From a bacterium (GTDB taxonomy: Bacteria > Patescibacteriota > Minisyncoccia > UBA6257 > 02-FULL-45-10c), in contig JAJYMK010000003.1 in assembly GCA_021786945.1 (NCBI GenBank), positions 37,105 through 101,104 of the forward strand: a stretch of DNA of 64,000 nucleotides, written 5' to 3'. A program made the position numbers and the translations under genes. The notes beneath the pieces were generated by a model. It saw only the letters and a list, made by a program, of their open reading frames with translations, was not told the origin of the DNA and ran no database searches. Below are positions 1-60,372 of this stretch, piece after piece (positions within the stretch are counted from its first letter, which is position 1; each line of letters begins with the position of its first letter).

Positions 1-1205
<1,205 letters not shown>

Positions 1206-1380
1206 TAAAATTTTTACTTCGGTAAAAATTTAAGTACGATTATTTATCTTTTGATAAGTATATGAGTGTTGATCGTGGAGCTCTAAGTCACGATTCGCTA
1301 ATTCAATTTATTTTGAAGCGCGTAAGGTTGAGGTAACTAAAAAGTTTTTAAATGACTCAATTACTGCATGAATAATAAAA

Positions 1381-1404
1381 AGCGCCTTGTCGGCGTTTTT
1401 TATT
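1381..1404 (+). terminator. Weak rho-independent terminator downstream of 16S (gcgcc-ttgtc-ggcgt stem plus T-run)
   Basis: Short GC stem followed by TTTTTTATTTTT. Confidence 0.35.
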
Positions 1405-1442
1405 TTTAAAAAAATAAAGTCTTGTGATATAATATAAAAACA

Positions 1443-1814
1443 ATGGCAAAGAAAATATTATTGATTGAGGACGACCCATTTTTATCTTCTTTATTAAAAA
1501 ATAGATTTATTAAGGAGGGTTATGAAATCGTATTGGCTCAAACCGGTGATGCAGGCATCCAAGCTGCAAAACAAGGCGGGGTTGATTTGATTCTTTTAGA
1601 TCTTATTCTTCCGGGTAAGTCCGGATTTGAAGTTATGGAAGAGTTAAATATGGATCCGTTGGTCCCCAAGGTTCCTATTCTTATAATTTCCAATTTAGGA
1701 CAAGATAGTGATATAGAGAAAGGTAAGGAGCTTGGCGCTGTGGGTTATCTTATAAAAGCCAGGACATCAATTGAAACTTTAATTTCTAAAGCAAAGGAAT
1801 TTATAGGAACTTAA
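1443..1814 (+). CDS. Single-domain CheY-like response regulator receiver
   Basis: Receiver-domain motifs: LLIEDD..., the phospho-acceptor context DLILLDLILPGKSG, and a conserved Lys near the C-terminus. A TGATATAAT extended -10 lies just upstream. Confidence 0.85.
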   Translation: MAKKILLIEDDPFLSSLLKNRFIKEGYEIVLAQTGDAGIQAAKQGGVDLILLDLILPGKSGFEVMEELNMDPLVPKVPILIISNLGQDSDIEKGKELGAVGYLIKARTSIETLISKAKEFIGT

Positions 1815-1900
1815 TAGTTATCAACATTTAATATTCCTTATATTTTATAAATAGTTTATAATATATATACAATTAAAATTAATAAAAAATATAGTTATTT

Positions 1901-2533
1901 ATGAGTAAATCAGTAACAAAAGGTTTTACCTTAATCGAATTATTGATCGTTATTGGTATTTTGGCTGTTTTAGCCACCGTAACATTATTAGTATTAAATC
2001 CGGCTCAGATGTTTGCTCAGGCCAGGGATTCACAGAGGATTTCCGATTTAAATACAGTTAAGAGCGCCGTTTCTTTGTATTTATCTACAGCGTCTTCCCC
2101 GGTTTTAGCTACAGGCACCAATGGTGTTGATTGTGCTACAAATTTTTGGGGTACTTTTGCAACAACCACTGGAGCTACAGCTGGCGCCGCTTTATTTGGT
2201 AATTCCGCCAGAACGACATTTAAATCTCCAACCTCTGCCACAACTACCGTTGGCCTAGGCGGATGGATTCCTGTTCCTTTAGATACAATGTCTGGAGGTT
2301 CTCCAATTAGTGCTTTGCCGTTGGATCCTTCCAATATTTTGAATGGTACAAATACAAATGACGCTACAGCTTATTACTATGCCTGCAGCACAACTCAGAT
2401 GACTTTTAAATTAGTAGGACAATTGGAAAGCACCAGATATTCTAACGGTGGTACAGAAGATAAAGAATCAACTGACGGTGGTACAAATGCCGCTTATTAC
2501 GAAACCGGTACCAATATCTCTGCCAGTTTGTAA
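1901..2533 (+). CDS. Type IV major pilin paralog 1 (class III signal, G|FTLIELL)
   Basis: N-terminus MSKSVTKG|FTLIELLIVIGILAVLA is a prepilin peptidase site with Glu+5. It shares the GWIPV...LP.DP...ESxxYS...STDGG..YYE core with the next two genes. Confidence 0.9.
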   Translation: MSKSVTKGFTLIELLIVIGILAVLATVTLLVLNPAQMFAQARDSQRISDLNTVKSAVSLYLSTASSPVLATGTNGVDCATNFWGTFATTTGATAGAALFGNSARTTFKSPTSATTTVGLGGWIPVPLDTMSGGSPISALPLDPSNILNGTNTNDATAYYYACSTTQMTFKLVGQLESTRYSNGGTEDKESTDGGTNAAYYETGTNISASL

Positions 2534-2556
2534 ACCCGATTCTAAAAAATATTTTT

Positions 2557-2585
2557 ATCCCGCACAATTGTGCGGGATTTTTGTT
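2557..2585 (+). terminator. Rho-independent terminator after pilin 1
   Basis: atcccgcaca-att-tgtgcgggat followed by TTTTTGTT. Confidence 0.7.
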
Positions 2586-2631
2586 AACATTTTCATTTAT
2601 TAACTTTTTAAAATAGTTTATAATTAAATTT

Positions 2632-3234
2632 ATGAATAAAACATCGGCAAAGGGTTTTACTTTAATTGAACTTTTAATCGTTATCGCTATTTTGGCTATT
2701 TTAGCCACAGTGGTTTTGATTGTTATTAACCCGGTTCAAATGTTTGCTCAAGCCAGGGATTCTCAGAGGATTAATGATATGGCTACTTTAAATAGCGCCG
2801 TAGCTTTATATTTAACAACTGTCACATTGCCATCGTTGGAGGGTGGTGGTGGAACTTGCGCAGCAAATTTTTGGGCCACCAACGGAAGCGCAGTTAATAC
2901 CTTCGTTACTTCTTTAGTTTTACCAGCCGCCCCTTCTTTTACGGCAGCCGTAGATGGTACGGGCTGGATTCCGGTTAATTTATCTACAATTTCCGGCGGC
3001 TCTCCTTTAAGCGCTCTGCCTAGGGACCCCATAAATTCAAGTACGTATTTTTATTCTTATGCTTGTAATAATGCCAGTAAATGGTTTGAGTTTCATTCGA
3101 AAATGGAAAGCTGCAGATATAGTTATAATAATTCCGGTTGTGGAGGTGCCGGCAGTGATGATGTAGAAAGCACAGATGGAGGCCCAAACAATAATTATTA
3201 CGAAGTCGGAAATACTCCTGGTTTGGGTTTGTAA
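2632..3234 (+). CDS. Type IV major pilin paralog 2
   Basis: MNKTSAKG|FTLIELLIVIAILAILA. It has its own TATAAT ~7 nt upstream of the ATG. Confidence 0.9.
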   Translation: MNKTSAKGFTLIELLIVIAILAILATVVLIVINPVQMFAQARDSQRINDMATLNSAVALYLTTVTLPSLEGGGGTCAANFWATNGSAVNTFVTSLVLPAAPSFTAAVDGTGWIPVNLSTISGGSPLSALPRDPINSSTYFYSYACNNASKWFEFHSKMESCRYSYNNSGCGGAGSDDVESTDGGPNNNYYEVGNTPGLGL

Positions 3235-3251
3235 GATTTATAAATAAAAAA

Positions 3252-3860
3252 ATGTCAAAAGGTTTTACTTTAATTGAGCTTTTAATCGTTATAGGTATAT
3301 TGGCTATTCTAGCTACTGTCACGGTGGTTGTTTTAAACCCTGGTCAACTATTTGCCCAAGCGAGAGATTCGCAAAGAATGTCTGATTTGGAAACTGTCAG
3401 TAAAGCTATAGGATATTATTTGTTAAATACTAGCAGCGTAGATCTTGATTCTGCGCTTTCGGTTTGCGGAACTTCCGGTACCCAATCATTGGCTTACACC
3501 GGAACTATTGCGGGTGCCACTACAAGCTTGATTTGCGCCGGAACCTGTTCTCAGGTTGCTGTTTCGGCAGCCAACGTTACTAATGTTGATGGGACTGGCT
3601 GGATTCCGGTAAATTTTGCAAGCGGCATGCTGGCGGGTACATCTATAAGTGATTTGCCGATTGATCCTACCAATACTACCGGCGCTACTGGATACGCATA
3701 TTCATATGGCTGTAATAATGCAGCCGCAACTTATGAGATCGATGCAAACTTGGAAAGTCAAAAATATTCGTATACCGGTTCAGATGATAAGGAGTCTAAG
3801 GATGGGGGAAATTCGGCTACATTGTACGAGGTTGGTAATGATCCTGGTTTGAATATGTAA
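3252..3860 (+). CDS. Type IV major pilin paralog 3
   Basis: MSKG|FTLIELLIVIGILAILA. Conserved C-terminal ESxKYSYTGSDDKESKDGG...YEVGN motif. Confidence 0.9.
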   Translation: MSKGFTLIELLIVIGILAILATVTVVVLNPGQLFAQARDSQRMSDLETVSKAIGYYLLNTSSVDLDSALSVCGTSGTQSLAYTGTIAGATTSLICAGTCSQVAVSAANVTNVDGTGWIPVNFASGMLAGTSISDLPIDPTNTTGATGYAYSYGCNNAAATYEIDANLESQKYSYTGSDDKESKDGGNSATLYEVGNDPGLNM

Positions 3861-3880
3861 TTTATTCGAAAGGTGGATAA

Positions 3881-3910
3881 AAAGCCGTGCTTATATCACG
3901 GCTTTTTTGT
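3881..3910 (+). terminator. Rho-independent terminator after the pilin array
   Basis: aaagccgtg-cttatat-cacggcttt plus a T-run. It is followed at once by TGTTATAAT (3908-3916), 8 nt before the pilB ATG. Confidence 0.7.
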
Positions 3911-3924
3911 TATAATAAAATTAA

Positions 3925-5631
3925 ATGCAGATTCCTATACACAAACTAAAAGAGATCGTTGTCGGTGAGAATTTTATTAGTGAAGCCGATTTTGATGCTT
4001 TGACGGAAGAAGCTGCTAGATTAGGCCAGAATGTAGCTGATGTTTTGATTTCAAAAAACATTGTTTCGCATGACTATCTTGCCGATTTGCTTTCTTCTTA
4101 TTTTGGCGTTGAAAAAGCCAATCTTGCTTCCAGGCAAATTGATAAGAATATTTTACAGCTTTTGCCGGAAGAAATGGCTAGGCAAAAAAAGGTAATTGTT
4201 TTCGCCAAAGAAGATTCGGGAATTTTTGATGTGGCTATGGAGGACCCGAGCGATTTGTTGACTATAGAATTTTTAGAGCAAAATTTGGGCGGTAAAGTAA
4301 AGCCATTTTTGGCTTTGGAGGGAGATTTGAATAAAGGCTTTGCTTTGTATGGTCAGGAATTATCTCAGGATTTTAAACAAATCATCGAATCAAATATTAA
4401 GGAGTCTTTAAGAATGGGGAAGAAGGGCGATGAGGCCGCTACGGAGGTTCCTATTGTTGCCATTGTAGATAATCTAGTTTCTTACGCCTTGGCTTCCCGT
4501 GCATCAGATATTCATTTTGAAATTTTTCAGGACGGAATACTTGTCCGTTACAGGATCGACGGTGTTTTGCATGAAATTATGAAGATACCAAAAGAAGTTC
4601 ATTCCGCTATCGTTGCTCGTGTAAAACTTTTGGGCGGTTTAAAAATTGATGAACATTATAAGCCGCAGGATGGACGTTTTAGATATAGAATTTCTGGAGG
4701 TAAGGATGTGTTGGACGTAAGGGTTTCCATATTGCCCACATACTATGGCGAAAAAATAGAAATGCGTCTTTTGGCTGCAGCTCAAAGGCCGCTGTCTTTA
4801 AAGGAGGTTGGTTTACTTGAAGACCATGCGGAAATTGTGATGGAAAATATAAAAAAGAGTTACGGTATGATCCTAGTTTGTGGTCCTACGGGTTCCGGTA
4901 AAACAACTACTCTGTATTCAATTTTAGGCCTTTTAAATAAAACGGAAGTAAATATTGTTACCATTGAGGATCCTATTGAATACGATATTAAATTTATAAA
5001 TCAAACACAGATCAATCCTCAGGCCGGAGTTACTTTTGCCAGCGGATTAAGATCTATTTTGAGGCAAGACCCTAATATTATCATGGTTGGTGAAATCAGA
5101 GATCCAGAAACTGCCGATATTTCCGTGCAGGCAGCTTTGACCGGTCATTTGGTGCTTTCTTCCTTGCACACGAACGATGCTCCGACAGCAGTGCCAAGGT
5201 TGATAGATATGAATATTGTTCCTTTTTTGGTTGCAGCTGTTGTTAATATGGTTTTGGCTCAAAGACTTGTACGAAGTATTTGTCTTGAATGTATTTATTC
5301 TATGGAGCCGGATAAAGAAACAATAGATGTAATTACACGTCAGCTTAAGGAATTGGGAGTTGAGAATTTTAAAATACCGAAATTAATTTATGCCGGAAAG
5401 GGCTGTCAGGCTTGCGGCGGTACTGGCTATAGAGGCAGAACCGGTATTTTTGAAATATTGAATGTGACCGAGGATATCAGAAAGGCTATTATTAGTCCCG
5501 ATTTTTCTTTGGATACTTTAAGAAACTCAGCCAGGGCTCATGGAATGGTAAGCATGTTTGAGGATGGATTAAGAAAAGTTGAGCGTGGTATGACAACCGT
5601 CGAAGAAATTTTGAGGGTTATAAGAGAGTAG
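3925..5631 (+). CDS. pilB: Type IV pilus assembly ATPase PilB/GspE family
   Basis: Walker A GPTGSGKTTT, Asp box, His box and the C-terminal tetracysteine motif CLEC...CQACGGTGYRGRTGIFE. 568 aa. Confidence 0.92.
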   Translation: MQIPIHKLKEIVVGENFISEADFDALTEEAARLGQNVADVLISKNIVSHDYLADLLSSYFGVEKANLASRQIDKNILQLLPEEMARQKKVIVFAKEDSGIFDVAMEDPSDLLTIEFLEQNLGGKVKPFLALEGDLNKGFALYGQELSQDFKQIIESNIKESLRMGKKGDEAATEVPIVAIVDNLVSYALASRASDIHFEIFQDGILVRYRIDGVLHEIMKIPKEVHSAIVARVKLLGGLKIDEHYKPQDGRFRYRISGGKDVLDVRVSILPTYYGEKIEMRLLAAAQRPLSLKEVGLLEDHAEIVMENIKKSYGMILVCGPTGSGKTTTLYSILGLLNKTEVNIVTIEDPIEYDIKFINQTQINPQAGVTFASGLRSILRQDPNIIMVGEIRDPETADISVQAALTGHLVLSSLHTNDAPTAVPRLIDMNIVPFLVAAVVNMVLAQRLVRSICLECIYSMEPDKETIDVITRQLKELGVENFKIPKLIYAGKGCQACGGTGYRGRTGIFEILNVTEDIRKAIISPDFSLDTLRNSARAHGMVSMFEDGLRKVERGMTTVEEILRVIRE

Positions 5632-5632
5632 T

Positions 5633-6841
5633 ATGAAGTTTCACTACATAGCTTCCGATCCTACAGGAAGAATAAATGAAGATAATTATGAGGCTGAAAG
5701 CTCTTATGAAGTTTTGAATTTTTTGGCTAAAAAGGGCTTAAGGCCGATTTCTATTAAGGTTGTAAGAAGTGTTGATGTAAACTTAAAAAAATTTTTTGGA
5801 CAAACTGTTACCATTGAAGATAAAATATTTTTGACGAAATACTTGTCTTTGATGTTGAAGGCGGGAACGGATTTGTTCAAGGCCATTACTATCCTTATTC
5901 AGGATTTTGAAAAACCGGTTTTGAAGGCTCTTTTGATTGAGATTAGGAATACCTTGGAAAAGGGACAGCCTTTTTATCTTACATTTTCTAAATATCCAAA
6001 ATATTTTTCAAATGTTTTTGTCAGTTTGATTAAAGCCGGAGAGCTTTCTGGTAACCTTGAACAGGTTTTTTATAATTTAAGCGTTTCTCTGCAAAAAGAC
6101 CAAGAGCTCTACGGGCGCATAAAATCAGCTTTTATTTACCCTATAATTTTGATGGGGGTTTCGGCTTTAATCCTTTTATTGCTTGTAAGCTTTGCTTTGC
6201 CGAAAGTGGCAGATGTTTTTTTGAAATCGGGTTTTAAAGTACCATTTTTTTCACAAATAGTTTTTTCTATAGGCTTATTTATAAATGATTATAAACTCAT
6301 AATTTTTCCTTTATTATTTATTTTTGTGGTTGTTTCTTATTATTTCTTTGCCAAGACGGTTCCGGGCAGGCAAATAATTTCCAGATTTATAAACAAACTT
6401 CCTATTGTAAATAAGGTTATCAAAGAAATGGCTTTGCAGAGATTCGCTTCAACACTTGCTTCTTTGATGCGTGCCGGCTTACCGATTTTAGATGCCTTAG
6501 AAATTACCGCTGATTCAGTTGGTTCTGAAGAATTAAGACAAGCCCTGCTTAGAATCTCTAGAGAGGGAATTGCTAAGGGACTTACTATCGGCGAGGCTTT
6601 CAGAAAAGAACCTTTTTTCCCCATGACGGTTACCAATCTTATCGCTGTTTCCGAGAAGGCCGGACACACAGAGGATATTTTGAGCACATTATCTGAATTT
6701 TTTGAAACAGAAATTGACGGACAGGTTAAAAACCTCGTTTCATTCCTTGAACCTATTTTACTTTTAGGTATAGGGTTGATAATTGGAACAATCGCTTTAG
6801 CTGTTATAGTTCCGGTTTATCAGCTTGTTGGTGGCATGTAG
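5633..6841 (+). CDS. pilC: Type IV pilus inner-membrane platform protein PilC/GspF family
   Basis: Two GspF repeats, three TM segments, and a start 2 nt after the pilB stop. Confidence 0.88.
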   Translation: MKFHYIASDPTGRINEDNYEAESSYEVLNFLAKKGLRPISIKVVRSVDVNLKKFFGQTVTIEDKIFLTKYLSLMLKAGTDLFKAITILIQDFEKPVLKALLIEIRNTLEKGQPFYLTFSKYPKYFSNVFVSLIKAGELSGNLEQVFYNLSVSLQKDQELYGRIKSAFIYPIILMGVSALILLLLVSFALPKVADVFLKSGFKVPFFSQIVFSIGLFINDYKLIIFPLLFIFVVVSYYFFAKTVPGRQIISRFINKLPIVNKVIKEMALQRFASTLASLMRAGLPILDALEITADSVGSEELRQALLRISREGIAKGLTIGEAFRKEPFFPMTVTNLIAVSEKAGHTEDILSTLSEFFETEIDGQVKNLVSFLEPILLLGIGLIIGTIALAVIVPVYQLVGGM

Positions 6842-6884
6842 AGAGGGGTATAATTAAAATTGTTTAACACTAATTTTAAAAACA

Positions 6885-9800
6885 ATGTTCAATAAAAAGA
6901 ATAATGGTTTTACCTTGATGGAGCTTTTGGTAACTATGGGAATAGCTGTGGTTTTGGGTAGCGTTGCGATGTCTAATTATTTTAGTTATCAATCCACTGT
7001 AAGTATTGATGGAGCCGCCAACGAGCTTTTGGGTAATTTAAGGGATGCTCAACAGAGAGCGATTTCTCAAGATCAGCAATCGGCTTGGGGTGTTTATATC
7101 AATGCAGTTTCCGACGATAACGATTATTATGAATTATTTTACGGTAATAGCAGATCAACGGGGACGGTTGTTTCAAAGACTGTTTTGCCGGTTGATCTGG
7201 AGTTTTTAGTTCCGGCTCAAGGTAGTGTCTCCGAAATAAATTTCGCAAAATCTACCGGCTTGCCGAATCATGACTATACTTTAATAATTGTTTCTAAAAG
7301 AAATAGTACCTTAGCAAGAACAATTTCTTTTAATATGTCTACGGGCTTGATAGCTTCTTCTGAGAATTTGGGCTCCGGACCGACACTTTCTTCTATTACT
7401 CCAAATAGCGCCTTAAATTCAGCCCCGGTAAATATAACAGCCTTGGTGGGAACGGGTTTTCAGCAGGGTGCTTTATTGAAGTTAACAAAATCCGGAAATC
7501 CTGATTTGATTTGTACAAATATGGCTTTTGTTAATTCGGCTTTATTGACCGGCACATGTGATGTTACTGGTAAATCCGGAGGAACTTGGAATACAGTAGT
7601 TGTAAATCCTGACGGACAATCGGCAACTTTAGCTAATAGTTTTACATTGATTGGAGTTTCGGTGCCGGGATTCGTTTCTTCGTTTAGCGCTGTTGTTGGA
7701 AATCAACAATTAGTTTTGAATTGGGGAGCTCCGCTTGATAACGGGGGTGCCACAATAACCAGTTATAAAGTTTATCGTAGTACAACTTCTGGCGCAGAAA
7801 CATTGCTTACTTCCGGAGGGTGTTCTGGTCTTGGAAGTGTATTGACCTGTACTGATTCCGGTCTTACAAATGGCACAACTTATTATTATAAAATTTCTGC
7901 AGTTAATTCCGTTGGAGAAGGAGCTTTGAGTTCGGAAATAAGTTATATTCCGGCTTCGGTGCCTACAGCCCCTCAAAATTTTGCCGTATCTTCCGGCAAC
8001 CAACAATTAGTTTTGAATTGGGGAGCTCCGCTTGATAACGGGGGTGCCACAATAACCAGTTATAAAGTTTATCGTAGTACAACTTCTGGCGCAGAAACAT
8101 TGCTTACTTCCGGAGGGTGTTCTGGTCTTGGAAGTGTATTGACCTGTACTGATTCCGGTCTTACAAATGGCACAACTTATTATTATAAAATTTCTGCAGT
8201 TAATTCCGTTGGAGAAGGAGCTTTGAGTTCGGAATCTAGCGCGACTACATTTACAACGCCTACAGCCCCTCAAAATTTTGCTGCAATATCAGGAAAACAA
8301 AAAATAGTTCTTAATTGGACAGCTCCATCAAATAATGGCGGCTCTTCAATTACTAATTATGAAATATATAGAGGTGCGTCTTCCGGAGGAGAAACACTTC
8401 TAGCAGAAGTTGGTAGTGTGCTTACGTATACCGATTCAGGATTGGCAAATGGATCGACTTATTACTATAAAGTTGCGGCTAAAAATATTATTGGTATTGG
8501 TACGCAAAGTTCAGAATCCAGCGCGACTACATTAACTGAATGGCGTAGAATTTTTGTAACTAGCACTTCATATTCGGGTAATTTAGGAGGATTATCCGGC
8601 GCGGATTCGTTATGCCAGACAAGGGCTAATGCTGTTAGTCTTGGCGGGACTTGGAAGGCTTGGCTCAGTGATGAAACAACAAATGCTTCAGATAGGCTTT
8701 ATCATGATACCGTTGCATATGTAAATATGAATAATGATAAAGTCGCTAATAACTGGACTGATTTAACTGATGGAAGTTTAACATCTGCGATTCAATATAA
8801 TGAGAGCGGGGTTTCTACGGCTGGCCAAGCTTGGACTGGTAGCTATTCCGACGGAACTAAGTATTTTAGCCAAGATTGTACGGCGTGGACTTCTACAACC
8901 GGAACTGGCGGAGATGCTGGATTATCGGGTATTGTTACTAGTACAACGGGTTCGTGGTCGTATAACGGAACCAATTCTTGCAATACCAGCCTTCCATTAT
9001 ATTGCGTAGAGCAGCCTCCATTTAGTGCTCCGGATGCGCCAACTATCAATACGGTTTATGCAGGAAACAGTCGCGTATCAGTTCTTTTTTCAGCTCCGTC
9101 TTCCGACGGTGGTAGTCCTATTACTAGTTATACAGTTACATCTAATCCTGGAAATATTACCGCTAACGCTTCAGCTAGCCCAATCATAGTAACTGGATTA
9201 ACTAACGGAATCCCTTACACTTTTACTGTAACCGCTACAAATGCTATTGGTACCGGTCCAGCCTCGGTTCCTTCTAGTAGCGTTACTTTGCCTACCGTTT
9301 TTTCAAGACTTTTTGTAACGAGTTTAAAATATAATGGTAATCTAGGTGGTTTATCCGGAGCCGATGCCAAATGTCAGGCTCGTGCTGATGCCGCTAGTTT
9401 AGGTGGAATATGGAAGGCGTGGCTTAGTGATTCAACTACAGATGCTTCGGCTAGATTGTTTCATAATACAGTTCCTTATGTTGATATTTTAGGCAATCTC
9501 GTTGCAAATGATTGGACTGGGTTAACCAGTAGCAATCTTATTATGCCCATAAAATATGATGAGTTTGGTGTTGAATATACCGATCAATATTACCCTAATC
9601 CGACATCTTTAGCTGTCCATACAAACACATATGCTAATGGCACACGAATTGCAACTCAATCTGTTTATACTTGCAGCGATTGGACATATGCTTCTAATTA
9701 TGACCAATATTCTATGTGGCATGGATTTACAAGAAGATCTGATTCGACTTGGTCGTACGATCCAAATTGGTATGGATTAGGATGCCCAATTGAACAGTTC

Positions 9801-10631
9801 CTTTATTGTTTTGAGCAGCCAACCGCTCCTTCCGCTCCAGAAAATCTATTAGCTCTTCGCAGCAGCGTTGCTACGGAAGTTGCCTTAAGTTGGACAGCTC
9901 CATCAAACAATGGCGGCTTACCGATAACTGGTTATAAAATTTATCGGGGAACTACTAGTGGGGGAGAGACTTTATTGGCAACCATCGGTAATGTTTTGAC
10001 CTATACAGCTACGGGTCATACAAGTGGTATAACGTATTATTATAAAGTATCTGCGGTAAATTCGGTCGGCGAAGGAAGTCTTTCAATTGAAGCATTAGGA
10101 TATCCTGGAGCGAAAAGAATATTTGTAACTAGCACAGCATACAATGGTAATCTTGGTGGTGTTGCTGGGGCTAATAGTATTTGTCAGACCCGTGCTAATG
10201 CGGCTTCTCTTGGAGGTACTTGGAAGGCTCTTATATGTTCATCTACTCAAGATGCAAGATCGGTCCCGACCTATGGTACAAATAGCGCATTTGTACGTGT
10301 AGATGGAGTTTATATTAGCGCAAATACAAGCTCTCCAAATGATTTGTTTGACGGTACTATAGCTAACAGTCTAAACAAAACAGAGTTTAATGGTACGCTT
10401 AGCAGGGTTCTTGACAGTATTGAAACCGGTTGTTTAACTACTGGCTTAAGACAAACCGATAGTAATACCTACATGTGTAGCGACTGGACATCTTCTTCTG
10501 CTGCAGGTCCTCCTTATAAAAATGCGTCTGGTCCATTAAGTACGGACGAAACTTTATATGGCTATTACATGGGTGGGAGTGCATATGGCTGCGCTTATAC
10601 AAATTTGCATATTTACTGCATCGAAATATAA
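6885..10631 (+). CDS. Giant prepilin-type protein (1248 aa): pilin N-terminus, Ig-like region, 5 FN3 repeats, 3 Cys-containing lectin-like modules
   Basis: N-terminus MFNKKNNG|FTLMELLVTMGIAVVLG is a class III signal. FN3 repeats have the form PTAPQNF...LNW.AP.DNGG..IT.Y.VYR....G.E.LL...G..L..TD.GLTNGTTYYYK. There are three ~160-aa modules of the form R(I/L)FVTS..Y.GNLGG..GA...C...A.A.SLGG.WKA...(4-6 Cys)...(L/I)YC(V/F/I)E. Confidence 0.85.
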   Translation: MFNKKNNGFTLMELLVTMGIAVVLGSVAMSNYFSYQSTVSIDGAANELLGNLRDAQQRAISQDQQSAWGVYINAVSDDNDYYELFYGNSRSTGTVVSKTVLPVDLEFLVPAQGSVSEINFAKSTGLPNHDYTLIIVSKRNSTLARTISFNMSTGLIASSENLGSGPTLSSITPNSALNSAPVNITALVGTGFQQGALLKLTKSGNPDLICTNMAFVNSALLTGTCDVTGKSGGTWNTVVVNPDGQSATLANSFTLIGVSVPGFVSSFSAVVGNQQLVLNWGAPLDNGGATITSYKVYRSTTSGAETLLTSGGCSGLGSVLTCTDSGLTNGTTYYYKISAVNSVGEGALSSEISYIPASVPTAPQNFAVSSGNQQLVLNWGAPLDNGGATITSYKVYRSTTSGAETLLTSGGCSGLGSVLTCTDSGLTNGTTYYYKISAVNSVGEGALSSESSATTFTTPTAPQNFAAISGKQKIVLNWTAPSNNGGSSITNYEIYRGASSGGETLLAEVGSVLTYTDSGLANGSTYYYKVAAKNIIGIGTQSSESSATTLTEWRRIFVTSTSYSGNLGGLSGADSLCQTRANAVSLGGTWKAWLSDETTNASDRLYHDTVAYVNMNNDKVANNWTDLTDGSLTSAIQYNESGVSTAGQAWTGSYSDGTKYFSQDCTAWTSTTGTGGDAGLSGIVTSTTGSWSYNGTNSCNTSLPLYCVEQPPFSAPDAPTINTVYAGNSRVSVLFSAPSSDGGSPITSYTVTSNPGNITANASASPIIVTGLTNGIPYTFTVTATNAIGTGPASVPSSSVTLPTVFSRLFVTSLKYNGNLGGLSGADAKCQARADAASLGGIWKAWLSDSTTDASARLFHNTVPYVDILGNLVANDWTGLTSSNLIMPIKYDEFGVEYTDQYYPNPTSLAVHTNTYANGTRIATQSVYTCSDWTYASNYDQYSMWHGFTRRSDSTWSYDPNWYGLGCPIEQFLYCFEQPTAPSAPENLLALRSSVATEVALSWTAPSNNGGLPITGYKIYRGTTSGGETLLATIGNVLTYTATGHTSGITYYYKVSAVNSVGEGSLSIEALGYPGAKRIFVTSTAYNGNLGGVAGANSICQTRANAASLGGTWKALICSSTQDARSVPTYGTNSAFVRVDGVYISANTSSPNDLFDGTIANSLNKTEFNGTLSRVLDSIETGCLTTGLRQTDSNTYMCSDWTSSSAAGPPYKNASGPLSTDETLYGYYMGGSAYGCAYTNLHIYCIEI
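7704..8234 (+). repeat. Perfect tandem duplication inside the giant pilin gene (period 297 bp; 234 bp identical)
   Basis: 7704-7937 is base-for-base identical to 8001-8234. Each copy encodes an identical FN3 domain. The antisense ORFs 7710..8006 and 8007..8273 translate identically because of it. Confidence 0.9.
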
Positions 10632-10644
10632 CGACAGAATAAAA

Positions 10645-10676
10645 ACAGGAGAGACTTATAACCTCTCCCGTTTTTA
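10645..10676 (+). terminator. Rho-independent terminator after the giant pilin gene
   Basis: caggagag-acttataac-ctctcccg followed by TTTTTATTATT. Confidence 0.7.
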
Positions 10677-10736
10677 TTATTGAGCTGGGGATTGTTTCGG
10701 TTTTAGCTATTAGAATAAAGTGTTAAAATATTAATA

Positions 10737-12629
10737 ATGTCTAAAAGATTTCAAAGCGGCCAGTCGTTGATGGAAATTTTGATTGGCCTTGGAATTATCT
10801 CAATAATGGTAGGTACTTCTACCTATGCTTTGGTTACTGTTTTAAGAACCAGCTCTACCACCGAGCAAAATCAAGCAGCTGGATTAATAGGTAACAGTCT
10901 TTTGGAATCAGCTTCTACTTTAGCCGAGGCAAATTGGAACTCGATTTATAACTTACAAAAAACTTTATCTAATCATTACTATCTTGTAAGATCTTCTACT
11001 ACCACCCCAACTCCCGTTGCGGGAGATGAAAGCGTTTTGGAGCAGGATGTTACGAACGGTTTGGTTGGCTATTGGAAATTCGATGAAGCTGGCGGCAGTT
11101 ATGCCTATGATTCTTCCGGTAATGGAAATTTGGGAACACTAACGAATATACCAGATTTAAACAGCGGGCTTGTTGGATATTGGAAATTCGATGAAGGATC
11201 GGGTGCATCTGTAACTGATTTTTCCGGAAATAATAATACGGGAACCTTGGTAAATTCTCCGACATGGACTGATAGTTTAAATTGCAGATTGGGTGGATGC
11301 TTGGGTTTTAACGGATTAAATCAATATGTTCAAGTTAATAATTCTCCTTCATTAAATCCCAATAATTTAACAATTTCGGTTTGGGCTAAGAGTAATACTT
11401 CTACTTGGAATGATTATGGTTTTTTGGTTAGTAAGAGAAATGCGTATATTATTCACCCGGTTCAAGGAACTAATAGTATTGGTTTTTATATTTATACAAC
11501 AGCTTGGACATCTGTTAGTTGTAGTGCTGCAAATATTACAAATTGGAATTTGTATACCCTAACATGGAACGGAACGACTCTGAGTTGCTATGTTAATGAA
11601 ACGATGGGATATTCAAATAATCCCGGCGGATCAATAAATGTTTCTGATGGCAATAATTTAACTATTGGTAGGGATAGTACTTTATCTAGGTATTTTAATG
11701 GCTTTATCGACAATGTTCGTATTTACAACAGAGCCCTAACCGCAACTGAAGTTTCGAGGCTTTATAATATGAATGGTTGTAAGGCTGGGAGTTGTATGGT
11801 TTTTAATGGAACAAATAATTATATATCGATTCCTCACAATGCCGTTCTTACCCCAACATCAGCCTTAACAGTTTCAGTTTGGGTTAATCCCACCTCAGTT
11901 TCTTCAGCTCTTGATATTTTAAATAAAACTTGGCAGTATTCGGGCGATCTTTATTGGCTTAGAATAAATGCCGGAGGAACTATTTATTGGCATATTGGAA
12001 CTGCAGATACCGTTGCTAAGGCTATGAATACGACAGCTTCAATTCAGGCTAATAAGTGGTCGCATATTGTGGCTACTTATAATGGGTCAAAAGCTTACGT
12101 TTATATAAACGGCATTAAGGACGCTAACTCCATTACAGTTTCTCCGTCTCAAAATTTTGGCCCATCTGTTTATAAACTTGATATAGGAGTAAGACTTGTT
12201 TATTTTTCTGGTCTTATCGATGATGTTCGTATCTACAACCGTGAATTATCGGCTAGTGAAATTTCCCAAATTTATAACAGCCAGGTTTATTCGAGATATT
12301 TTTATGTAGATAATGTGAATAGGGATGTTTGTGGCTCCGGAAATATTACTACGAGTGCCCAAAGCACATGTATTGGAACGAGCGGTGTTAGCGAAGATCC
12401 GGCCACGCAAAAAATTACAGTAGGAACATACTGGAATTTAAAGGGTGTAAAACAGGTTTTGGAAAATTATATTTATGTTACTAGGTGGTTGAATAGTGCA
12501 GCGGCGCAAAATGACTGGGGCGGCACCAGCGGTGTTGATACTTCGGTTTCCAGTTTCGGAACCGATTATTACAGCGCATCAAATATTTCGGTAACAGCTT
12601 CTGGTACCATTAAAGTATCGGGGCTTTAA
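10737..12629 (+). CDS. Pseudopilin-like protein with two LamG/concanavalin-A-like lectin domains
   Basis: Pilin-like N-terminus MSKRFQSG|QSLMEILIGLGIISIMVG with Glu+5. Two LamG_3-type signatures: LVGYWKFDE(A/G)...SGNGN.GTL and GFIDNVRIYNRALTATEV / GLIDDVRIYNRELSASEI. Confidence 0.75.
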   Translation: MSKRFQSGQSLMEILIGLGIISIMVGTSTYALVTVLRTSSTTEQNQAAGLIGNSLLESASTLAEANWNSIYNLQKTLSNHYYLVRSSTTTPTPVAGDESVLEQDVTNGLVGYWKFDEAGGSYAYDSSGNGNLGTLTNIPDLNSGLVGYWKFDEGSGASVTDFSGNNNTGTLVNSPTWTDSLNCRLGGCLGFNGLNQYVQVNNSPSLNPNNLTISVWAKSNTSTWNDYGFLVSKRNAYIIHPVQGTNSIGFYIYTTAWTSVSCSAANITNWNLYTLTWNGTTLSCYVNETMGYSNNPGGSINVSDGNNLTIGRDSTLSRYFNGFIDNVRIYNRALTATEVSRLYNMNGCKAGSCMVFNGTNNYISIPHNAVLTPTSALTVSVWVNPTSVSSALDILNKTWQYSGDLYWLRINAGGTIYWHIGTADTVAKAMNTTASIQANKWSHIVATYNGSKAYVYINGIKDANSITVSPSQNFGPSVYKLDIGVRLVYFSGLIDDVRIYNRELSASEISQIYNSQVYSRYFYVDNVNRDVCGSGNITTSAQSTCIGTSGVSEDPATQKITVGTYWNLKGVKQVLENYIYVTRWLNSAAAQNDWGGTSGVDTSVSSFGTDYYSASNISVTASGTIKVSGL

Positions 12630-14403: not shown

Positions 14404-15936
14404 ATGGATTTAAATTTATTTTCTAAAAAATATCCTGTATTGGGAAAATATTGGCAGAAAATCATTAAGCTTTTAAAATCCGAAAATATTATCGGCGGAA
14501 TTAGCATAAGCAGCACGGCGATACGTTTTATAAGATTAAACGAAGGCGTAATCGAAAAGATTGGAGTTGTTTTGGAGCCTGGGGTTATTGTGGCGGGCAG
14601 GTTAAAAAACAGAGACATATTTTTGAAGTCATTACTAGCCTTAAGGAATAAATTGGGTAATCCTAAAGAGGATATTCATGTAATTGTTTCTTTATCTCCG
14701 GACAATGTTTATACACAATCCTTTAATATTCCAGCTATAGAGGAAAGATTGGTTAATGAAGCGGCAAAGCTTAATTTGCAGCTTATTTCTCCTATTGATA
14801 TAAAAACGGCTTATACCGATTGGGAAAAAATAGGCGAAACCCAGGAGGAGGGCGGTAAAATAGAATTACTTGGAGCTTTTGCTAATAAGGTAATGGTGGA
14901 TGAATTTACATCGGTTTTTAAAGAGGCTGGTTTTGGGGTGGTGGCTATTGAATTTTCATCTCTGTCCCTGGCCAGACTTATAAAAGACGAATCTTTTAAT
15001 GCGAGCTTGGAAAAACCACAGGTAGTTCTTTCTATTTCAAGTGATGGCCCAGAATTTTTTGTTTTAAAAAACAATAAGCTCTATTTCAATTATTTCTTTC
15101 CATGGACATCGGTTGAGGGTAGGCAAATATCCCTTTCCGATTTTGATACTATTTTAACTCAGGAAATGAAGAAAGTTCTGAATTTTTATAGTAGTCATTG
15201 GAACGCTCAGCTTTCCGACCTGGTTTTAATTACTCATGGTCTTTACTCTGAAATAGAAGCAATAATCAAAAAAAATTTTCCGGCTATCAATATAAAACCA
15301 ATTATATTGAACGATAAATTCTCTGGTTTAAATCCTTCCTGGTACACTGCTTTAGGCAGTGCAATAAGGGGAACTATTTCAAGATCGGATGATATTTTTA
15401 TTAGTCTTATGGATGTTGGTACTGAACAGAGTTTTTTTGAAAGCCGGGTTAGTTATTTTGTAAAAATTTGGCGAACAATAGTTTTGTCGACTTTAGGCGT
15501 TGTTGTTTTTTTGTTCTTTTTGGAAGATATGTTTTTTATGCAAATCTCAAATAGTTTACAGGCTCAAATTTCAACAATAGTTTCCAGACCGGAAAGCCAG
15601 GAAATAACAAGCCTTGAAAATAAAGCAAGAGAGTTTAACAGTCTTATTTCAAAAGCCTTAATTGCAAAACAGGGCAGCAGAAAAGTGTCTAGGTTTTTTG
15701 ATATTTTTAAACAGTTGGCAGGTACTGATATCGAAATACAAAAAATTGTCTTCGACACTGATAGGGCTACGGTTTTGATAACAGCTATAGCAAAAAGCAA
15801 TCAGGCGGTTATAAATTTTAAAAACAATCTTTCTAGCCGCAGCGAATTCAGGAACGTGGAGTTTTCTTTTACTAGTACCACCAACAATCCTGACGGAACT
15901 ATTAATTTCCCAATGACGCTGGGTGTAAATATATAA
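14404..15936 (+). CDS. pilM: PilM-like actin-fold protein fused to a PilN-like segment
   Basis: ~350-aa PilM/FtsA-like region, then a TM helix (IWRTIVLSTLGVVVFLFFL), then a ~140-aa coiled-coil plus alpha/beta C-terminus typical of PilN/PilO. Confidence 0.65.
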   Translation: MDLNLFSKKYPVLGKYWQKIIKLLKSENIIGGISISSTAIRFIRLNEGVIEKIGVVLEPGVIVAGRLKNRDIFLKSLLALRNKLGNPKEDIHVIVSLSPDNVYTQSFNIPAIEERLVNEAAKLNLQLISPIDIKTAYTDWEKIGETQEEGGKIELLGAFANKVMVDEFTSVFKEAGFGVVAIEFSSLSLARLIKDESFNASLEKPQVVLSISSDGPEFFVLKNNKLYFNYFFPWTSVEGRQISLSDFDTILTQEMKKVLNFYSSHWNAQLSDLVLITHGLYSEIEAIIKKNFPAINIKPIILNDKFSGLNPSWYTALGSAIRGTISRSDDIFISLMDVGTEQSFFESRVSYFVKIWRTIVLSTLGVVVFLFFLEDMFFMQISNSLQAQISTIVSRPESQEITSLENKAREFNSLISKALIAKQGSRKVSRFFDIFKQLAGTDIEIQKIVFDTDRATVLITAIAKSNQAVINFKNNLSSRSEFRNVEFSFTSTTNNPDGTINFPMTLGVNI

Positions 15937-37945: not shown

Positions 37946-38551
37946 ATGAATTTCAATTTTTTCAAAAAAACAGATTTTTATAAATTACTGCTTGATCAGG
38001 CGGAAAAAACGCGGGAGGGTGTGGCGGCTTTGCTTGAATTTATAAATAATCCTACTCAGGAAAACGGAAACGATGTCAGCCGATTGGAGGGGGAGGCAGA
38101 TGAAATCAGGCGAGTCTTGATTGATGATTTAAACAGGACATTTGTTACCCCAATAGACCGAGAAGATATTTTTTCTTTATCTAGATCAATTGATGATGTA
38201 TTGGACTATGCCGAAACAACGGTTGAAGAAATGCTTGTTTTGGATATAAAGCCCGACAACAATATAAAACAGCTCGTTGAAATTCTTCTTGAAGCTTCAA
38301 ACAGTGTTGCTTTGGCTGTAAAAAATATAAAAGAGCATCCGGGTGTATGCATCGAGCATGTTATTAAAGCTAGAAAGTCCGAGCATAAAATAGAAAAGCT
38401 TTACAGGCTAGCCTTAGCTGAGCTTTTTAAAACAAATGATGTTATAAAAATCCTTAAAACAAGAGAGGTTTATAGACATCTTTCCAATGCCGCGGATAGA
38501 GTGGTGGCCGCCGCTAACGTGATCAGCGATATTTTGGTAAAAAATGCCTAA
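37946..38551 (+). CDS. DUF47 (PhoU-like) regulator partnered with PiT
   Basis: Helical ~200-aa protein in the conserved PiT-DUF47 gene pair. Confidence 0.7.
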   Translation: MNFNFFKKTDFYKLLLDQAEKTREGVAALLEFINNPTQENGNDVSRLEGEADEIRRVLIDDLNRTFVTPIDREDIFSLSRSIDDVLDYAETTVEEMLVLDIKPDNNIKQLVEILLEASNSVALAVKNIKEHPGVCIEHVIKARKSEHKIEKLYRLALAELFKTNDVIKILKTREVYRHLSNAADRVVAAANVISDILVKNA

Positions 38552-40043
38552 GTCTTTTTTTTCCGAGAAGGTTTGTGCTGAAATTGATCTGCATATGCTT
38601 ACCAGGCCTCAGGCCGAAGTGGAACTTTATGATTTTTTGGATAAATCCTATTCTTTAGGATTTCATAAAGTAAGAATAATTACTGGCAAGGGATTGAATT
38701 CCGAAAACGGTCAAAGCATTTTAAAGCCATTTGTTCAGGAAATTCTCAGAAAAGAAAAATTAAAGTTTAGGGATGCAAAAATGAATGAGGGCGGCGCCGG
38801 AGCAATTGATGTTTGGCTTTTTCAGGCTAAAGCCTTCACATTGATAGAACTCCTGATAGTCATAGGTATATTAGCAGTCTTAGCAACAACCGTGCTTCTA
38901 GTCATAAACCCAGCTCAGTTAGTTAAGCAATCCAGAGATGCCAATAGAATCACGGAGCTGACATCTATCAACCAAGCTCTTCTTTTGTATCAATCCTTCG
39001 GAGGTAGCACTAGCATGGGTACTCATGGAGATGTCTATGTGTCTTTACCCAGCGCCCAAGCTGATTGTTCCGACCTCGGTCTTCCAGCCCTCAGTAGTGG
39101 TAGCTATCATTGCTCCACCTCTGCAAACTACAGAAATATAGACGGTACAGGCTGGATTCCGGTTAATTTAGCTTCTGTCCAATCTTCTGCCGGAACTCTT
39201 TTTTCCAGTCTTCCTATAGATCCAATCAATACCGTAGCCAATGGTTACTACTACACCTATATCCCTGGTTCCTGGGCTCTTTCTGCTACCATGGAATCAG
39301 AAAAATACCTTGCTGCTAATGCTACCAATGACGGAGGACAATCAGCTACCAGATTCGAAAAAGGAAATGATTTGAGTTTGAATGCAAATTTACCTGGGTT
39401 TGTGCCTACGTGTGGAGCAAGCGATACCCTTGGTTTGGTTAGCTATTGGAAATTCAATGAATCTTCAGGAACATCAGCGGCCGATTTTTATGGCTCAAAT
39501 CCAGGCACGTTAACAGCGGGGTTGTCTTCGAGGGTTGCCGGCAAACTTGGCAATGCTTTAAATTTTATTGGTCAAAATGATTATATGAGTTTAGCGAGTA
39601 TGACCGGATTTCCTTCGGGATCTAATCCTTACACTATTGAGTTATGGATAAAACCAAATTTATTTGATAATAGAGTGATAATTAGCTGGGGAATTGGTTC
39701 TGCAAATCAAACCAATGCCATAAAAATAAATAATAATACTATTGTTAATTATTGGTGGGCAAATGATTTAACCGCTTCCGCAACCATAACTGATTCCTGG
39801 TATTATATAGTTGCTACTTTTGATGGTACTTCTAGAAAAATTTATTCGAATGGAAATGTGGTGGGCTCGGATAATCCGGGAAGTCCTAATATCAATTCAT
39901 CTAATTTTCGTTTAGGTCAGGGTTCTGGCAGTTTATTTTCTGGTTTAATTGATGAACTCGCTATTTATAATCAAGCCCTTTCGGGTACTGATATTCAAAA
40001 GCACTATCAAAGAATTAATAGCGGGAATAGTTATTGTAATTAG
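38544..40043 (+). CDS. In-frame fusion: Smr (MutS2-type nuclease) domain, then the type IV pilin core, then a LamG lectin domain
   Basis: Residues 1-93 are a complete Smr domain: IDLHMLT...VRIITGKGLNS...GGAGAIDVWLF. No stop follows it. Next comes QAKA|FTLIELLIVIGILAVLATTVLLVINPAQ, a pilin hydrophobic helix with Ala, not Gly, at -1. The pilin core (GTGWIPVN...LPIDP...ESEKY) follows, then a LamG_3 domain (LVSYWKFNESSGTS...GLIDELAIYNQALSGTDI). The pilin-core DNA (~38820-39370) is ~45% GC. Confidence 0.7.
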   Translation: MPKSFFSEKVCAEIDLHMLTRPQAEVELYDFLDKSYSLGFHKVRIITGKGLNSENGQSILKPFVQEILRKEKLKFRDAKMNEGGAGAIDVWLFQAKAFTLIELLIVIGILAVLATTVLLVINPAQLVKQSRDANRITELTSINQALLLYQSFGGSTSMGTHGDVYVSLPSAQADCSDLGLPALSSGSYHCSTSANYRNIDGTGWIPVNLASVQSSAGTLFSSLPIDPINTVANGYYYTYIPGSWALSATMESEKYLAANATNDGGQSATRFEKGNDLSLNANLPGFVPTCGASDTLGLVSYWKFNESSGTSAADFYGSNPGTLTAGLSSRVAGKLGNALNFIGQNDYMSLASMTGFPSGSNPYTIELWIKPNLFDNRVIISWGIGSANQTNAIKINNNTIVNYWWANDLTASATITDSWYYIVATFDGTSRKIYSNGNVVGSDNPGSPNINSSNFRLGQGSGSLFSGLIDELAIYNQALSGTDIQKHYQRINSGNSYCN

Positions 40044-58158: not shown

Positions 58159-58160
58159 CA

Positions 58161-60368: not shown

Positions 60369-60372
60369 TAAA

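What the first reader, a model, noticed from the sequence alone, without database searches (positions are those of the whole stretch)
7704..8234. Perfect 234-bp duplication (297-bp period) inside the giant pilin gene
Two FN3 domains are 100% identical at the DNA level, and a third diverged copy follows. This marks a very recent in-frame domain duplication. It creates a hotspot for copy-number change by slipped-strand or RecA-mediated recombination, which would vary the adhesin length. Assembly collapse or expansion of repeats is a real possibility.
Basis: seen in the sequence. Interest (0 to 1): 0.5.

Follow-up and report, generated by a model that had tools for sequence, protein, structure and literature searches.

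The report
Identical FN3 repeat in giant pilin
Two neighbouring FN3 spacer domains of a 1248-residue type IV pilin adhesin, probably from a Patescibacteria (CPR) bacterium, share a real, perfectly identical 234-bp core that most likely arose when one domain overwrote the other; this is an ordinary kind of repeat for surface adhesins, and it makes the gene hard to assemble and possibly variable in length.

Summary
Window 7704-7937 equals 8001-8234 exactly (234 bp, period 297), in frame, inside ORF 6885-10631. A third FN3 copy follows, with about 66% DNA identity.

The gene encodes a modular type IV pilin: pilin module, Ig-like domain, five FN3 domains and three DUF1554 modules. It sits in a pilB/pilC/pilM operon.

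The repeat is not an invention of one assembler. Contigs from independent short-read assemblies stop or start exactly at the repeat edges plus k (k = 31, 77, 141). That happens only if the core has two left and two right contexts in the reads.

The origin is probably not a fresh tandem duplication. The identical tract (234 bp) is shorter than the period (297 bp), and all three linkers differ. A syntenic ortholog (63% identity) has three diverged FN3 domains with orthologous linkers. FN3-2's core was therefore most likely overwritten by FN3-1's core through gene conversion.

A near-identical genome (GCA_027424165.1) carries the same gene minus exactly one 297-bp unit. This is either a real recombinational deletion or an assembly collapse; without reads I lean towards collapse.

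This is a new member of a known kind (Periscope-like repeats, modular pilin), of modest interest.

The parts
6885..10631 (+). Giant modular type IV pilin gene (1248 aa): pilin module, Ig-like domain, FN3 x3, endostatin-like DUF1554, FN3, DUF1554, FN3, DUF1554
   Evidence: ORF list; translation; Pfam fn3 E=1e-46 with 5 stretches, DUF1554 E=1.4e-24 with 3 stretches, N_methyl 24.5 bits against a cut-off of 21.2
6885..7365 (+). Prepilin leader (MFNKKNNG|FTLMELLV) and pilin module (about aa 1-160)
   Evidence: PF07963 hit at aa 4-28; 74% and 58% identity to the N-termini of P0004 and P0064. The module boundary is inferred.
7641..7703 (+). Linker L0>1 with the FN3-1 A strand (FTLIGVSVPGFVSSFSAVVGN); unique
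   Evidence: 68% DNA identity to the orthologous linker of P0004, 46% to L1
7704..7937 (+). Repeat core R, copy 1 (FN3-1 core, aa 274-351, includes the Cys loop CSGLGSVLTC); probable donor
   Evidence: Exact match; 75% DNA and 81% protein identity to the FN3-1 core of ortholog P0004
7938..8000 (+). Linker L1 (ISYIPASVPTAPQNFAVSSGN) between the two identical cores. It is ancestral, not created by a duplication.
   Evidence: 62% DNA identity to the FN3-1>2 linker of P0004. Also present in the independent assembly DAHXJT010000001.1 (L017, 100% identical to window 1-8077).
8001..8234 (+). Repeat core R, copy 2 (FN3-2 core, aa 373-450); probable acceptor of the conversion
   Evidence: Exact match; only 69% identical to the positional ortholog, the P0004 FN3-2 core, which is the short type without the Cys loop
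8235..8297 (+). Linker L2>3 (SSATTFTTPTAPQNFAAISGK)
   Evidence: 71% DNA identity to the FN3-2>3 linker of P0004
8298..8516 (+). FN3-3 core, the diverged third copy (short type)
   Evidence: 66% DNA identity to R; 77% and 72% to the P0004 FN3-2 and FN3-3 cores
8547..9011 (+). DUF1554 module 1, endostatin-like fold
   Evidence: Pfam Endostatin E=1.3e-16 and DUF1554; AF2 model pLDDT 91.8; Foldseek hits to endostatin 1dy0/1koe at E=1e-10, TM 0.80-0.82
9306..9815 (+). DUF1554 module 2
   Evidence: Direct repeat family D4; module extraction and alignment
10116..10625 (+). DUF1554 module 3
   Evidence: Best Pfam DUF1554 stretch at aa 1084-1206; D4
1901..3860 (+). Three small pilin genes (1901-2533, 2632-3234, 3252-3860)
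   Evidence: N_methyl hits
3925..6841 (+). pilB-like extension ATPase (3925-5631) and pilC-like platform protein (5633-6841)
   Evidence: T2SSE E=1e-119, T2SSF E=4e-50
10737..12629 (+). Second modular pilin, with two LamG (concanavalin-like) modules
   Evidence: Laminin_G_3 E=5e-55; weak N_methyl hit at aa 4-26
14404..15936 (+). PilM-PilN fusion
   Evidence: PilM_2 and PilN hits

Best explanation
The 234-bp identity is a real feature of the organism's giant modular type IV pilin gene. Three FN3 spacer domains already lay between the pilin/Ig part and the first endostatin-like module. Recently, the core of FN3-1, including its 15-bp disulphide-loop insertion, was copied over the core of FN3-2 by intragenic non-reciprocal recombination (gene conversion). 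The tract ends where the two domains already shared sequence (QQLVLNW on the left, S-S/T-E on the right), and the three linkers were left untouched. The result is two 234-bp perfect direct repeats 63 bp apart. These are an efficient substrate for deletion or expansion of one 297-bp (99-aa) FN3 unit, by homologous recombination or replication slippage. Such a change would shorten or lengthen the stalk that carries the three endostatin-like (C-type-lectin-like) modules on a pilus subunit. The repeat also forms an unresolvable loop in short-read assembly graphs. Shown: the identity, the domain content, the operon, the linker orthology, and the graph branching in other read sets. Inferred: the conversion mechanism and its direction, the adhesin/stalk function, and any real copy-number variation.
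For: The exact repeat has sharp edges, and the tract (234 bp) is shorter than the period (297 bp). All three linkers differ from one another, but each matches the positionally equivalent linker of the syntenic ortholog P0004/L002 (68%, 62%, 71%). That ortholog has three diverged FN3 domains at the same residues (L.W at 278, 377, 471), and its FN3-2 is the short type. W1 and P1 are 75% identical while W1 and W2 are 100% identical, so homogenisation occurred long after the species split. The repeat is real in reads. The MEGAHIT k141 contigs of ERZ27237183 end at 7844 and start at 8094. The Logan k31 contigs of SRR22746137 and SRR13201255 end at 7733 and start at 8205. The NCBI contig DAHXJT010000001.1 is 100% identical to window 1-8077 and ends at 8077, which is copy 2's first 77 bases. 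A de Bruijn simulation of the window puts branch nodes at exactly these positions and nowhere else in 5000-12000. GCA_027424165.1 carries the gene with exactly one 297-bp unit removed and otherwise 100% identical. For the pilin and operon identity; for the endostatin-like modules.
Against: No reads were available, so copy number (2 or more) and heterogeneity are not measured. Only one informative outgroup exists (63% identity). The W3 core is slightly closer to P2 (77%) than to P3 (72%), so the FN3-2/FN3-3 history is not clean. Independence of the public assemblies is uncertain, because some may derive from the same runs. The stalk and adhesin functions are inferred from domain types only. recA was not looked for outside the window.
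Confidence: 0.7

Rival explanations
1. Fresh in-frame tandem duplication of one FN3 unit, with no earlier FN3-2.
For: Two identical cores lie side by side, in frame, with period 297. A one-unit-shorter allele exists and could be the ancestral state.
Against: A 297-bp tandem duplication predicts 297 identical bases and one repeated linker. Only 234 bp are identical, and linker L1 (7938-8000) is not a copy of either neighbouring linker (46% and 62%). L1 is orthologous to the FN3-1>2 linker of the three-FN3 ortholog, so it predates the event. About 30 substitutions in 63 bp alongside none in 234 bp is not credible as divergence after a duplication.
Confidence: 0.08
2. Assembly artefact in the window contig. 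Either the true genome has one copy and the loop was expanded, or the two copies really differ and were homogenised by bubble popping or polishing.
For: The repeat (234 bp) is longer than usual k values, and three NCBI assemblies resolve it differently. Tandem repeats are a known source of assembly error (PMC6868369, found).
Against: L1 is flanked by R on both sides in a second assembly (L017). Contig ends at k = 31, 77 and 141 show two in-contexts and two out-contexts for R in at least three read sets. The k141 ends (7844, 8094) together cover all 234 bp, leaving no room for a difference between the copies in that sample. No Logan or ENA contig runs straight through a one-copy gene: P0002 is found only on the NCBI contig.
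Confidence: 0.07
3. The locus is truly polymorphic. Both the two-copy allele and the one-copy allele (GCA_027424165.1) exist in nature, produced by recombination between the identical cores. This is compatible with the best explanation; it is scored here as the probability that the short allele is real.
For: The short allele is the exact product expected (X-R-Y, in frame, otherwise identical over 3450 nt). It sits on a slightly different haplotype: 16S positions 803-804 are CC rather than TT, and there is a 2-bp indel at 1869-1870.
Against: The same product is expected if an assembler skips the R-L1-R loop. The ERZ27237183 contigs carry the same CC and 2-bp-deletion haplotype markers, yet still branch at both edges of R. 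No short-read assembly gives an uninterrupted one-copy gene.
Confidence: 0.35

Closest known systems
Periscope Proteins (SasG/Aap G5-E, Rib/alpha C, Sgo_0707 SHIRT, CdrA; Whelan et al. 2021, PMC8201768)
   Same: A surface-exposed protein with adjacent folded domains that are identical at the DNA level, with short proline-containing linkers. The expected consequence is the same: intragenic recombination changes domain number and hence how far binding modules project. Like those proteins, it breaks the usual rule that neighbouring domains are less than 50% identical.
   Different: Only two identical units, not a long array, and the linkers are not part of the identical tract. The anchor is an N-terminal pilin module rather than a C-terminal wall anchor, so the topology is inverted. 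Repeat-number variation between strains is not established. The rod-like shape was not tested.
Modular type IV pilins (S. sanguinis PilB-vWA and PilC-lectin, Raynaud et al. 2021, PMC8179133; Saccharibacteria PilX1/PilX2, PMC11623550)
   Same: An N-terminal class III signal peptide and pilin module followed by grafted non-pilin modules, encoded in a T4P operon. Lectin-like modules are proposed to bind host glycans. That survey already noted CPR examples with many extra domains.
   Different: Much larger (1248 aa, nine extra domains) than the bimodular archetypes. The FN3 + endostatin-like (DUF1554) architecture is not among those discussed there. No experimental evidence exists for incorporation into a pilus or for tip location.
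Endostatin / collagen XV-XVIII NC1 domain (C-type-lectin-like fold)
   Same: The DUF1554 module model superposes on endostatin structures (TM 0.80-0.82, E=1e-10, 22-26% identity), and Pfam Endostatin hits at E=1.3e-16.
   Different: A bacterial, pilin-borne module in three copies. Its ligand is unknown, and no heparin- or zinc-site analysis was done.

Membership tests
Modular type IV pilin | N-terminal prepilin (class III) signal peptide / N-methylation motif with G at -1 and E at +5 | tested here: met
   MFNKKNNG|FTLMELLV; PF07963 scores 24.5 bits against a cut-off of 21.2
Modular type IV pilin | Additional domain(s) not specific to T4P biology fused after the pilin module | tested here: met
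   fn3 x5 and DUF1554/Endostatin-like x3
Modular type IV pilin | Encoded with T4P assembly machinery | tested here: met
   PilB (T2SSE), PilC (T2SSF), PilM-PilN and four other pilin-like genes in the same strand block. No prepilin peptidase was found in the window.
Modular type IV pilin | Processed and polymerised into a pilus (tip or body) | not testable with these tools
   Needs proteomics, cryo-ET or genetics
Periscope Protein | Tandem folded domains with very high DNA identity | tested here: met
   Two FN3 cores are 100% identical over 234 bp. However, there are only two units and the 63-bp linkers are diverged.
Periscope Protein | Repeat number varies between closely related strains | tested here: inconclusive
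   GCA_027424165.1 has exactly one unit fewer, but assembly collapse explains this equally well
Periscope Protein | The repeats form an elongated stalk projecting a functional domain away from the anchor | not tested
   Inferred from the FN3 fold (termini at opposite ends) and the domain order pilin-Ig-FN3x3-endostatin-like. No multi-domain model was made.
Intragenic gene conversion between paralogous repeats | Identical tract bounded by diverged flanks that keep their orthology to an outgroup, with the converted unit grouping with its paralog rather than its ortholog | tested here: met
   W2 = W1 (100%) against W2~P2 at 69%. Linkers W0>1~P0>1 68%, W1>2~P1>2 62%, W2>3~P2>3 71%. There is a single outgroup only.

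The most novel reading that the evidence does not exclude
The FN3 stalk of this pilus-borne adhesin is a genuine length-polymorphic ('periscope-like') locus in natural populations of an ultrasmall episymbiotic bacterium. Recombination between the homogenised FN3 cores would switch cells between one-, two- and perhaps three-unit alleles, tuning how far the endostatin-like binding modules reach towards a host cell. This would extend the Periscope concept to type IV pilins and to Patescibacteria.
Probability: 0.3. Interest if true: 0.45.

Novelty: new member of a known kind. Interest (0 to 1): 0.3.

Why it matters
The practical value is a warning. This gene is mis-assembled or truncated in most public assemblies of this population, so contig breaks and a 99-aa length difference between near-identical MAGs should not be read as biology without read support. 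Biologically, it is a clean example of concerted evolution between neighbouring domains in a host-contact protein of an uncultured lineage. It also gives a concrete, cheaply testable candidate for adhesin length variation in Patescibacteria, where type IV pili are thought to mediate host attachment (PMC11623550). It does not open a new class of mechanism.

Tried and rejected
1. The exact look-up of the 1248-aa protein found no indexed contig. The window's own record therefore could not be identified; it is known only as an NCBI protein on a 554,095-bp contig.
2. A scan of JGI metagenome contigs for a 28-nt piece of the repeat core gave 0 hits.
3. Protein-guided scans of genome contigs and metagenome contigs with the pilin-module alignment returned only 5 and 3 relatives, none closer than P0004. 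None of the relatives' loci scanned (L007-L009, L012-L014) showed a highly similar FN3 pair; their direct repeats were at most 72% identical.
4. A search for protein fragments spanning linker L1, to catch the small loop contig of other assemblies, returned only distant FN3 proteins.
5. A second look-up through pilB did not reveal the hidden 50-200 kb contig.
6. A literature search for the run and assembly accessions found nothing.
7. Antisense ORFs under the repeat (7710-8006 and 8007-8273, minus strand) are mirror by-products of the duplication and were dismissed.
8. Rfam found nothing at the locus.
9. A mobile element or MITE was rejected, because the repeat is in frame and is an FN3 domain core.

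Full report
**Observation.** At an offset of 297 bp, window 7704-7937 is identical base for base to 8001-8234 (234 bp). The repeat finder and Tandem Repeats Finder report the same array. The identity ends abruptly. Mismatches start at 7703 and 7700 on the left and at 7938 on the right, and the 63-bp stretches that flank the cores are only 46% and 62% identical to each other. A third unit follows (core 8298-8516). It has 66% DNA and 62% protein identity to the repeat and lacks a 15-bp insertion. If the two cores were as diverged as in the nearest ortholog (about 69%), 234 consecutive matches would have a probability near 2e-38.

**The gene and its setting.** The repeat is in frame in ORF 6885-10631 (1248 aa).
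- The product starts with a prepilin leader and methylation motif (MFNKKNNG|FTLMELLV). Pfam N_methyl scores above its cut-off.
- It also carries five fn3 stretches (E=1e-46) and three DUF1554 modules that also hit Pfam Endostatin.
- The layout is: pilin module, an Ig-like domain (inferred), FN3-1, FN3-2, FN3-3, DUF1554, FN3-4, DUF1554, FN3-5, DUF1554.
- A model of the first DUF1554 module, built from a 14-sequence alignment, has pLDDT 91.8. It superposes on endostatin structures (E=1e-10, TM 0.80-0.82), which have a C-type-lectin-like fold.
- The same-strand neighbours are a response regulator, three small pilins, a PilB-type ATPase, a PilC-type platform protein, a second modular pilin with LamG modules, and a PilM-PilN fusion.
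- The window starts with the 3' part of a 16S rRNA and has 36.5% G+C.
- Relatives of the pilin module come from MAGs labelled Patescibacteria. The organism is therefore probably a CPR bacterium; this is an inference.

**Origin: overwrite, not fresh duplication.** A new tandem duplication of a 297-bp unit would leave 297 identical bases and a repeated linker. Here only 234 bp are identical, and the three linkers (7641-7703, 7938-8000, 8235-8297) all differ.

The syntenic ortholog P0004 (63% identity, same operon order, found unchanged on 8 contigs from several samples) has three FN3 domains at the same residues.
- Its FN3-1 is the long type with the Cys loop.
- Its FN3-2 and FN3-3 are the short type.
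- Each window linker is most similar to the linker at the same position in P0004 (68%, 62%, 71% DNA identity).
- The window FN3-1 core matches the P0004 FN3-1 core at 75%.
- The window FN3-2 core is 100% identical to its own FN3-1 but only 69% identical to its positional ortholog.

The common ancestor therefore already had three FN3 domains. In the window's lineage the FN3-2 core was recently replaced by the FN3-1 core, including the 15-bp loop insertion. That is the signature of intragenic gene conversion. The tract edges lie where the two domain types already share sequence (QQLVLNW on the left, S-S/T-E on the right), as expected for homology-driven exchange.

One imperfection remains. The FN3-3 core is slightly closer to the P0004 FN3-2 core (77%) than to its FN3-3 core (72%). 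This hints at further exchanges among the short-type domains and does not change the conclusion.

**Is it real or an assembly product?** Exact-protein look-ups of the neighbouring genes recovered other public assemblies of the same population. Their contig ends fall precisely on the repeat edges:
- The MEGAHIT k141 contigs of ERZ27237183 end at 7844 (7704+141-1) and start at 8094 (8234-141+1).
- The Logan (k=31) contigs of SRR22746137 and SRR13201255 end at 7733, and a SRR22746137 contig starts at 8205.
- NCBI contig DAHXJT010000001.1 (GCA_027372035.1, 696,638 bp) is 100% identical to window 1-8077 and stops at 8077. It therefore reads core, linker L1, and the first 77 bases of the second core.

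A de Bruijn simulation of the window places in- and out-branch nodes at exactly these coordinates for k = 31, 77 and 141, and nowhere else between 5000 and 12000. Such breaks arise only if the core has two different left neighbours and two different right neighbours in the reads. The two-context structure, including L1, thus exists in at least three read sets. The two k141 ends together cover all 234 bases, so the copies are identical in that sample as well. An expansion artefact from a single copy is excluded, and a homogenisation artefact is very unlikely. A copy number above two cannot be excluded, because the loop can be traversed more than once.

**The shorter allele.** GCA_027424165.1 (contig DAIBYD010000001.1, 502,876 bp) encodes P0002 (1149 aa). 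Its gene is the window gene minus exactly one 297-bp unit and is otherwise identical over 3450 nt. Across the 20.6 kb shared with the window, the only other differences are two adjacent bases in the 16S (803-804) and a 2-bp indel at 1869-1870.

This is the exact product of recombination between the two cores. It is also the exact product of an assembler that skips the loop. Two observations favour collapse:
- The ERZ27237183 contigs carry the same 803-804 and 1869-1870 variants, yet still branch at both repeat edges.
- No short-read assembly contains an uninterrupted one-copy gene.

I put the probability that the short allele is biologically real at about 0.35.

**How it probably works.**
- Shown: the two cores form perfect 234-bp direct repeats 63 bp apart, inside a pilin gene.
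- From established knowledge: direct repeats of this size and spacing are efficient substrates for RecA-dependent recombination and for replication slippage, each event removing or adding one 99-aa FN3 unit in frame.
- Inferred: the FN3 domains act as a spacer between the pilin/Ig part and the endostatin-like modules, which are the likely ligand-binding parts. A change of one unit would alter the reach by one FN3 length.
- Inferred: a pilin carrying this much cargo is most likely a low-abundance, tip-exposed subunit, as argued for other modular pilins (PMC8179133). Lectin-like minor pilins have been linked to host binding in Saccharibacteria (PMC11623550).

**Comparison with known systems.** The protein meets the sequence-level criteria of a modular type IV pilin; its incorporation into a filament cannot be tested here. 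The repeat resembles the Periscope Protein class (PMC8201768) in having adjacent domains identical at the DNA level and in its expected behaviour. It differs in having only two identical units, non-identical linkers and an inverted anchor topology, and strain-to-strain variation is unproven. It works like a nascent periscope repeat, but membership is not established.

**Verdict.** The repeat is real and hazardous for assembly. It reflects recent gene conversion within a pre-existing FN3 array rather than a fresh duplication. It is a new member of known kinds and of modest interest (0.3).

Noticed in passing
window 8547-9011, 9306-9815, 10116-10625: The DUF1554 modules of the giant pilin have an endostatin-like (collagen XV/XVIII NC1, C-type-lectin-like) fold: AF2 pLDDT 91.8, Foldseek E=1e-10, TM 0.80-0.82, 22-26% identity. 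Ten columns are invariant across 14 modules, including three Cys; a fourth Cys column is nearly invariant.
   Followed up: partly
window 1-1206 and 1207-1442: The 3' part of a 16S rRNA gene is followed directly by a response-regulator gene, with no 23S downstream, so the rRNA genes appear unlinked. The only substitutions among the near-identical assemblies (803-804 TT/CC, 819 A/G) lie inside this 16S.
   Followed up: partly
window 1869-1870: A 2-bp (AC) indel between assemblies lies in an AT-rich stretch 31 bp upstream of the first small pilin gene (ATG at 1901). It could change promoter or RBS spacing for the pilin operon.
   Followed up: no
window 10737-12629; L002 12485-16315: The second modular pilin (LamG modules) is 630 aa here but 1276 aa, with more LamG stretches, in the syntenic sister species. 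Module number therefore differs between species in both large pilins.
   Followed up: no
L002 8001-12383 (P0004): The orthologous giant pilin of the sister species carries Fib_succ_major modules in its C-terminal part (the window protein has none), together with one endostatin-like and one further DUF1554-like module. This is module shuffling behind a conserved pilin-Ig-FN3x3-endostatin-like front end.
   Followed up: partly
window 38544-40043: This ORF combines an Smr domain (aa 14-92), an N_methyl pilin motif (aa 96-117) and a LamG module. It is either two adjacent genes merged by ORF calling or a further LamG modular pilin away from the main pilus operon.
   Followed up: no
window 57286-63663: A run of PAS-rich sensor proteins: 290 aa with PAS x2, a 735-aa CHASE4-PAS histidine kinase, and 1096 aa with PAS x5 + GAF. 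The last ORF stops inside its HisKA domain (model positions 1-22 of 66), which suggests a split or frameshifted kinase. This much sensing machinery is unusual for a genome of about 0.5-0.7 Mb.
   Followed up: no
window 14404-15936: PilM and PilN are fused in one 510-aa ORF. No prepilin peptidase (PilD) or retraction ATPase (PilT) was found among the ORFs scanned in this window.
   Followed up: partly
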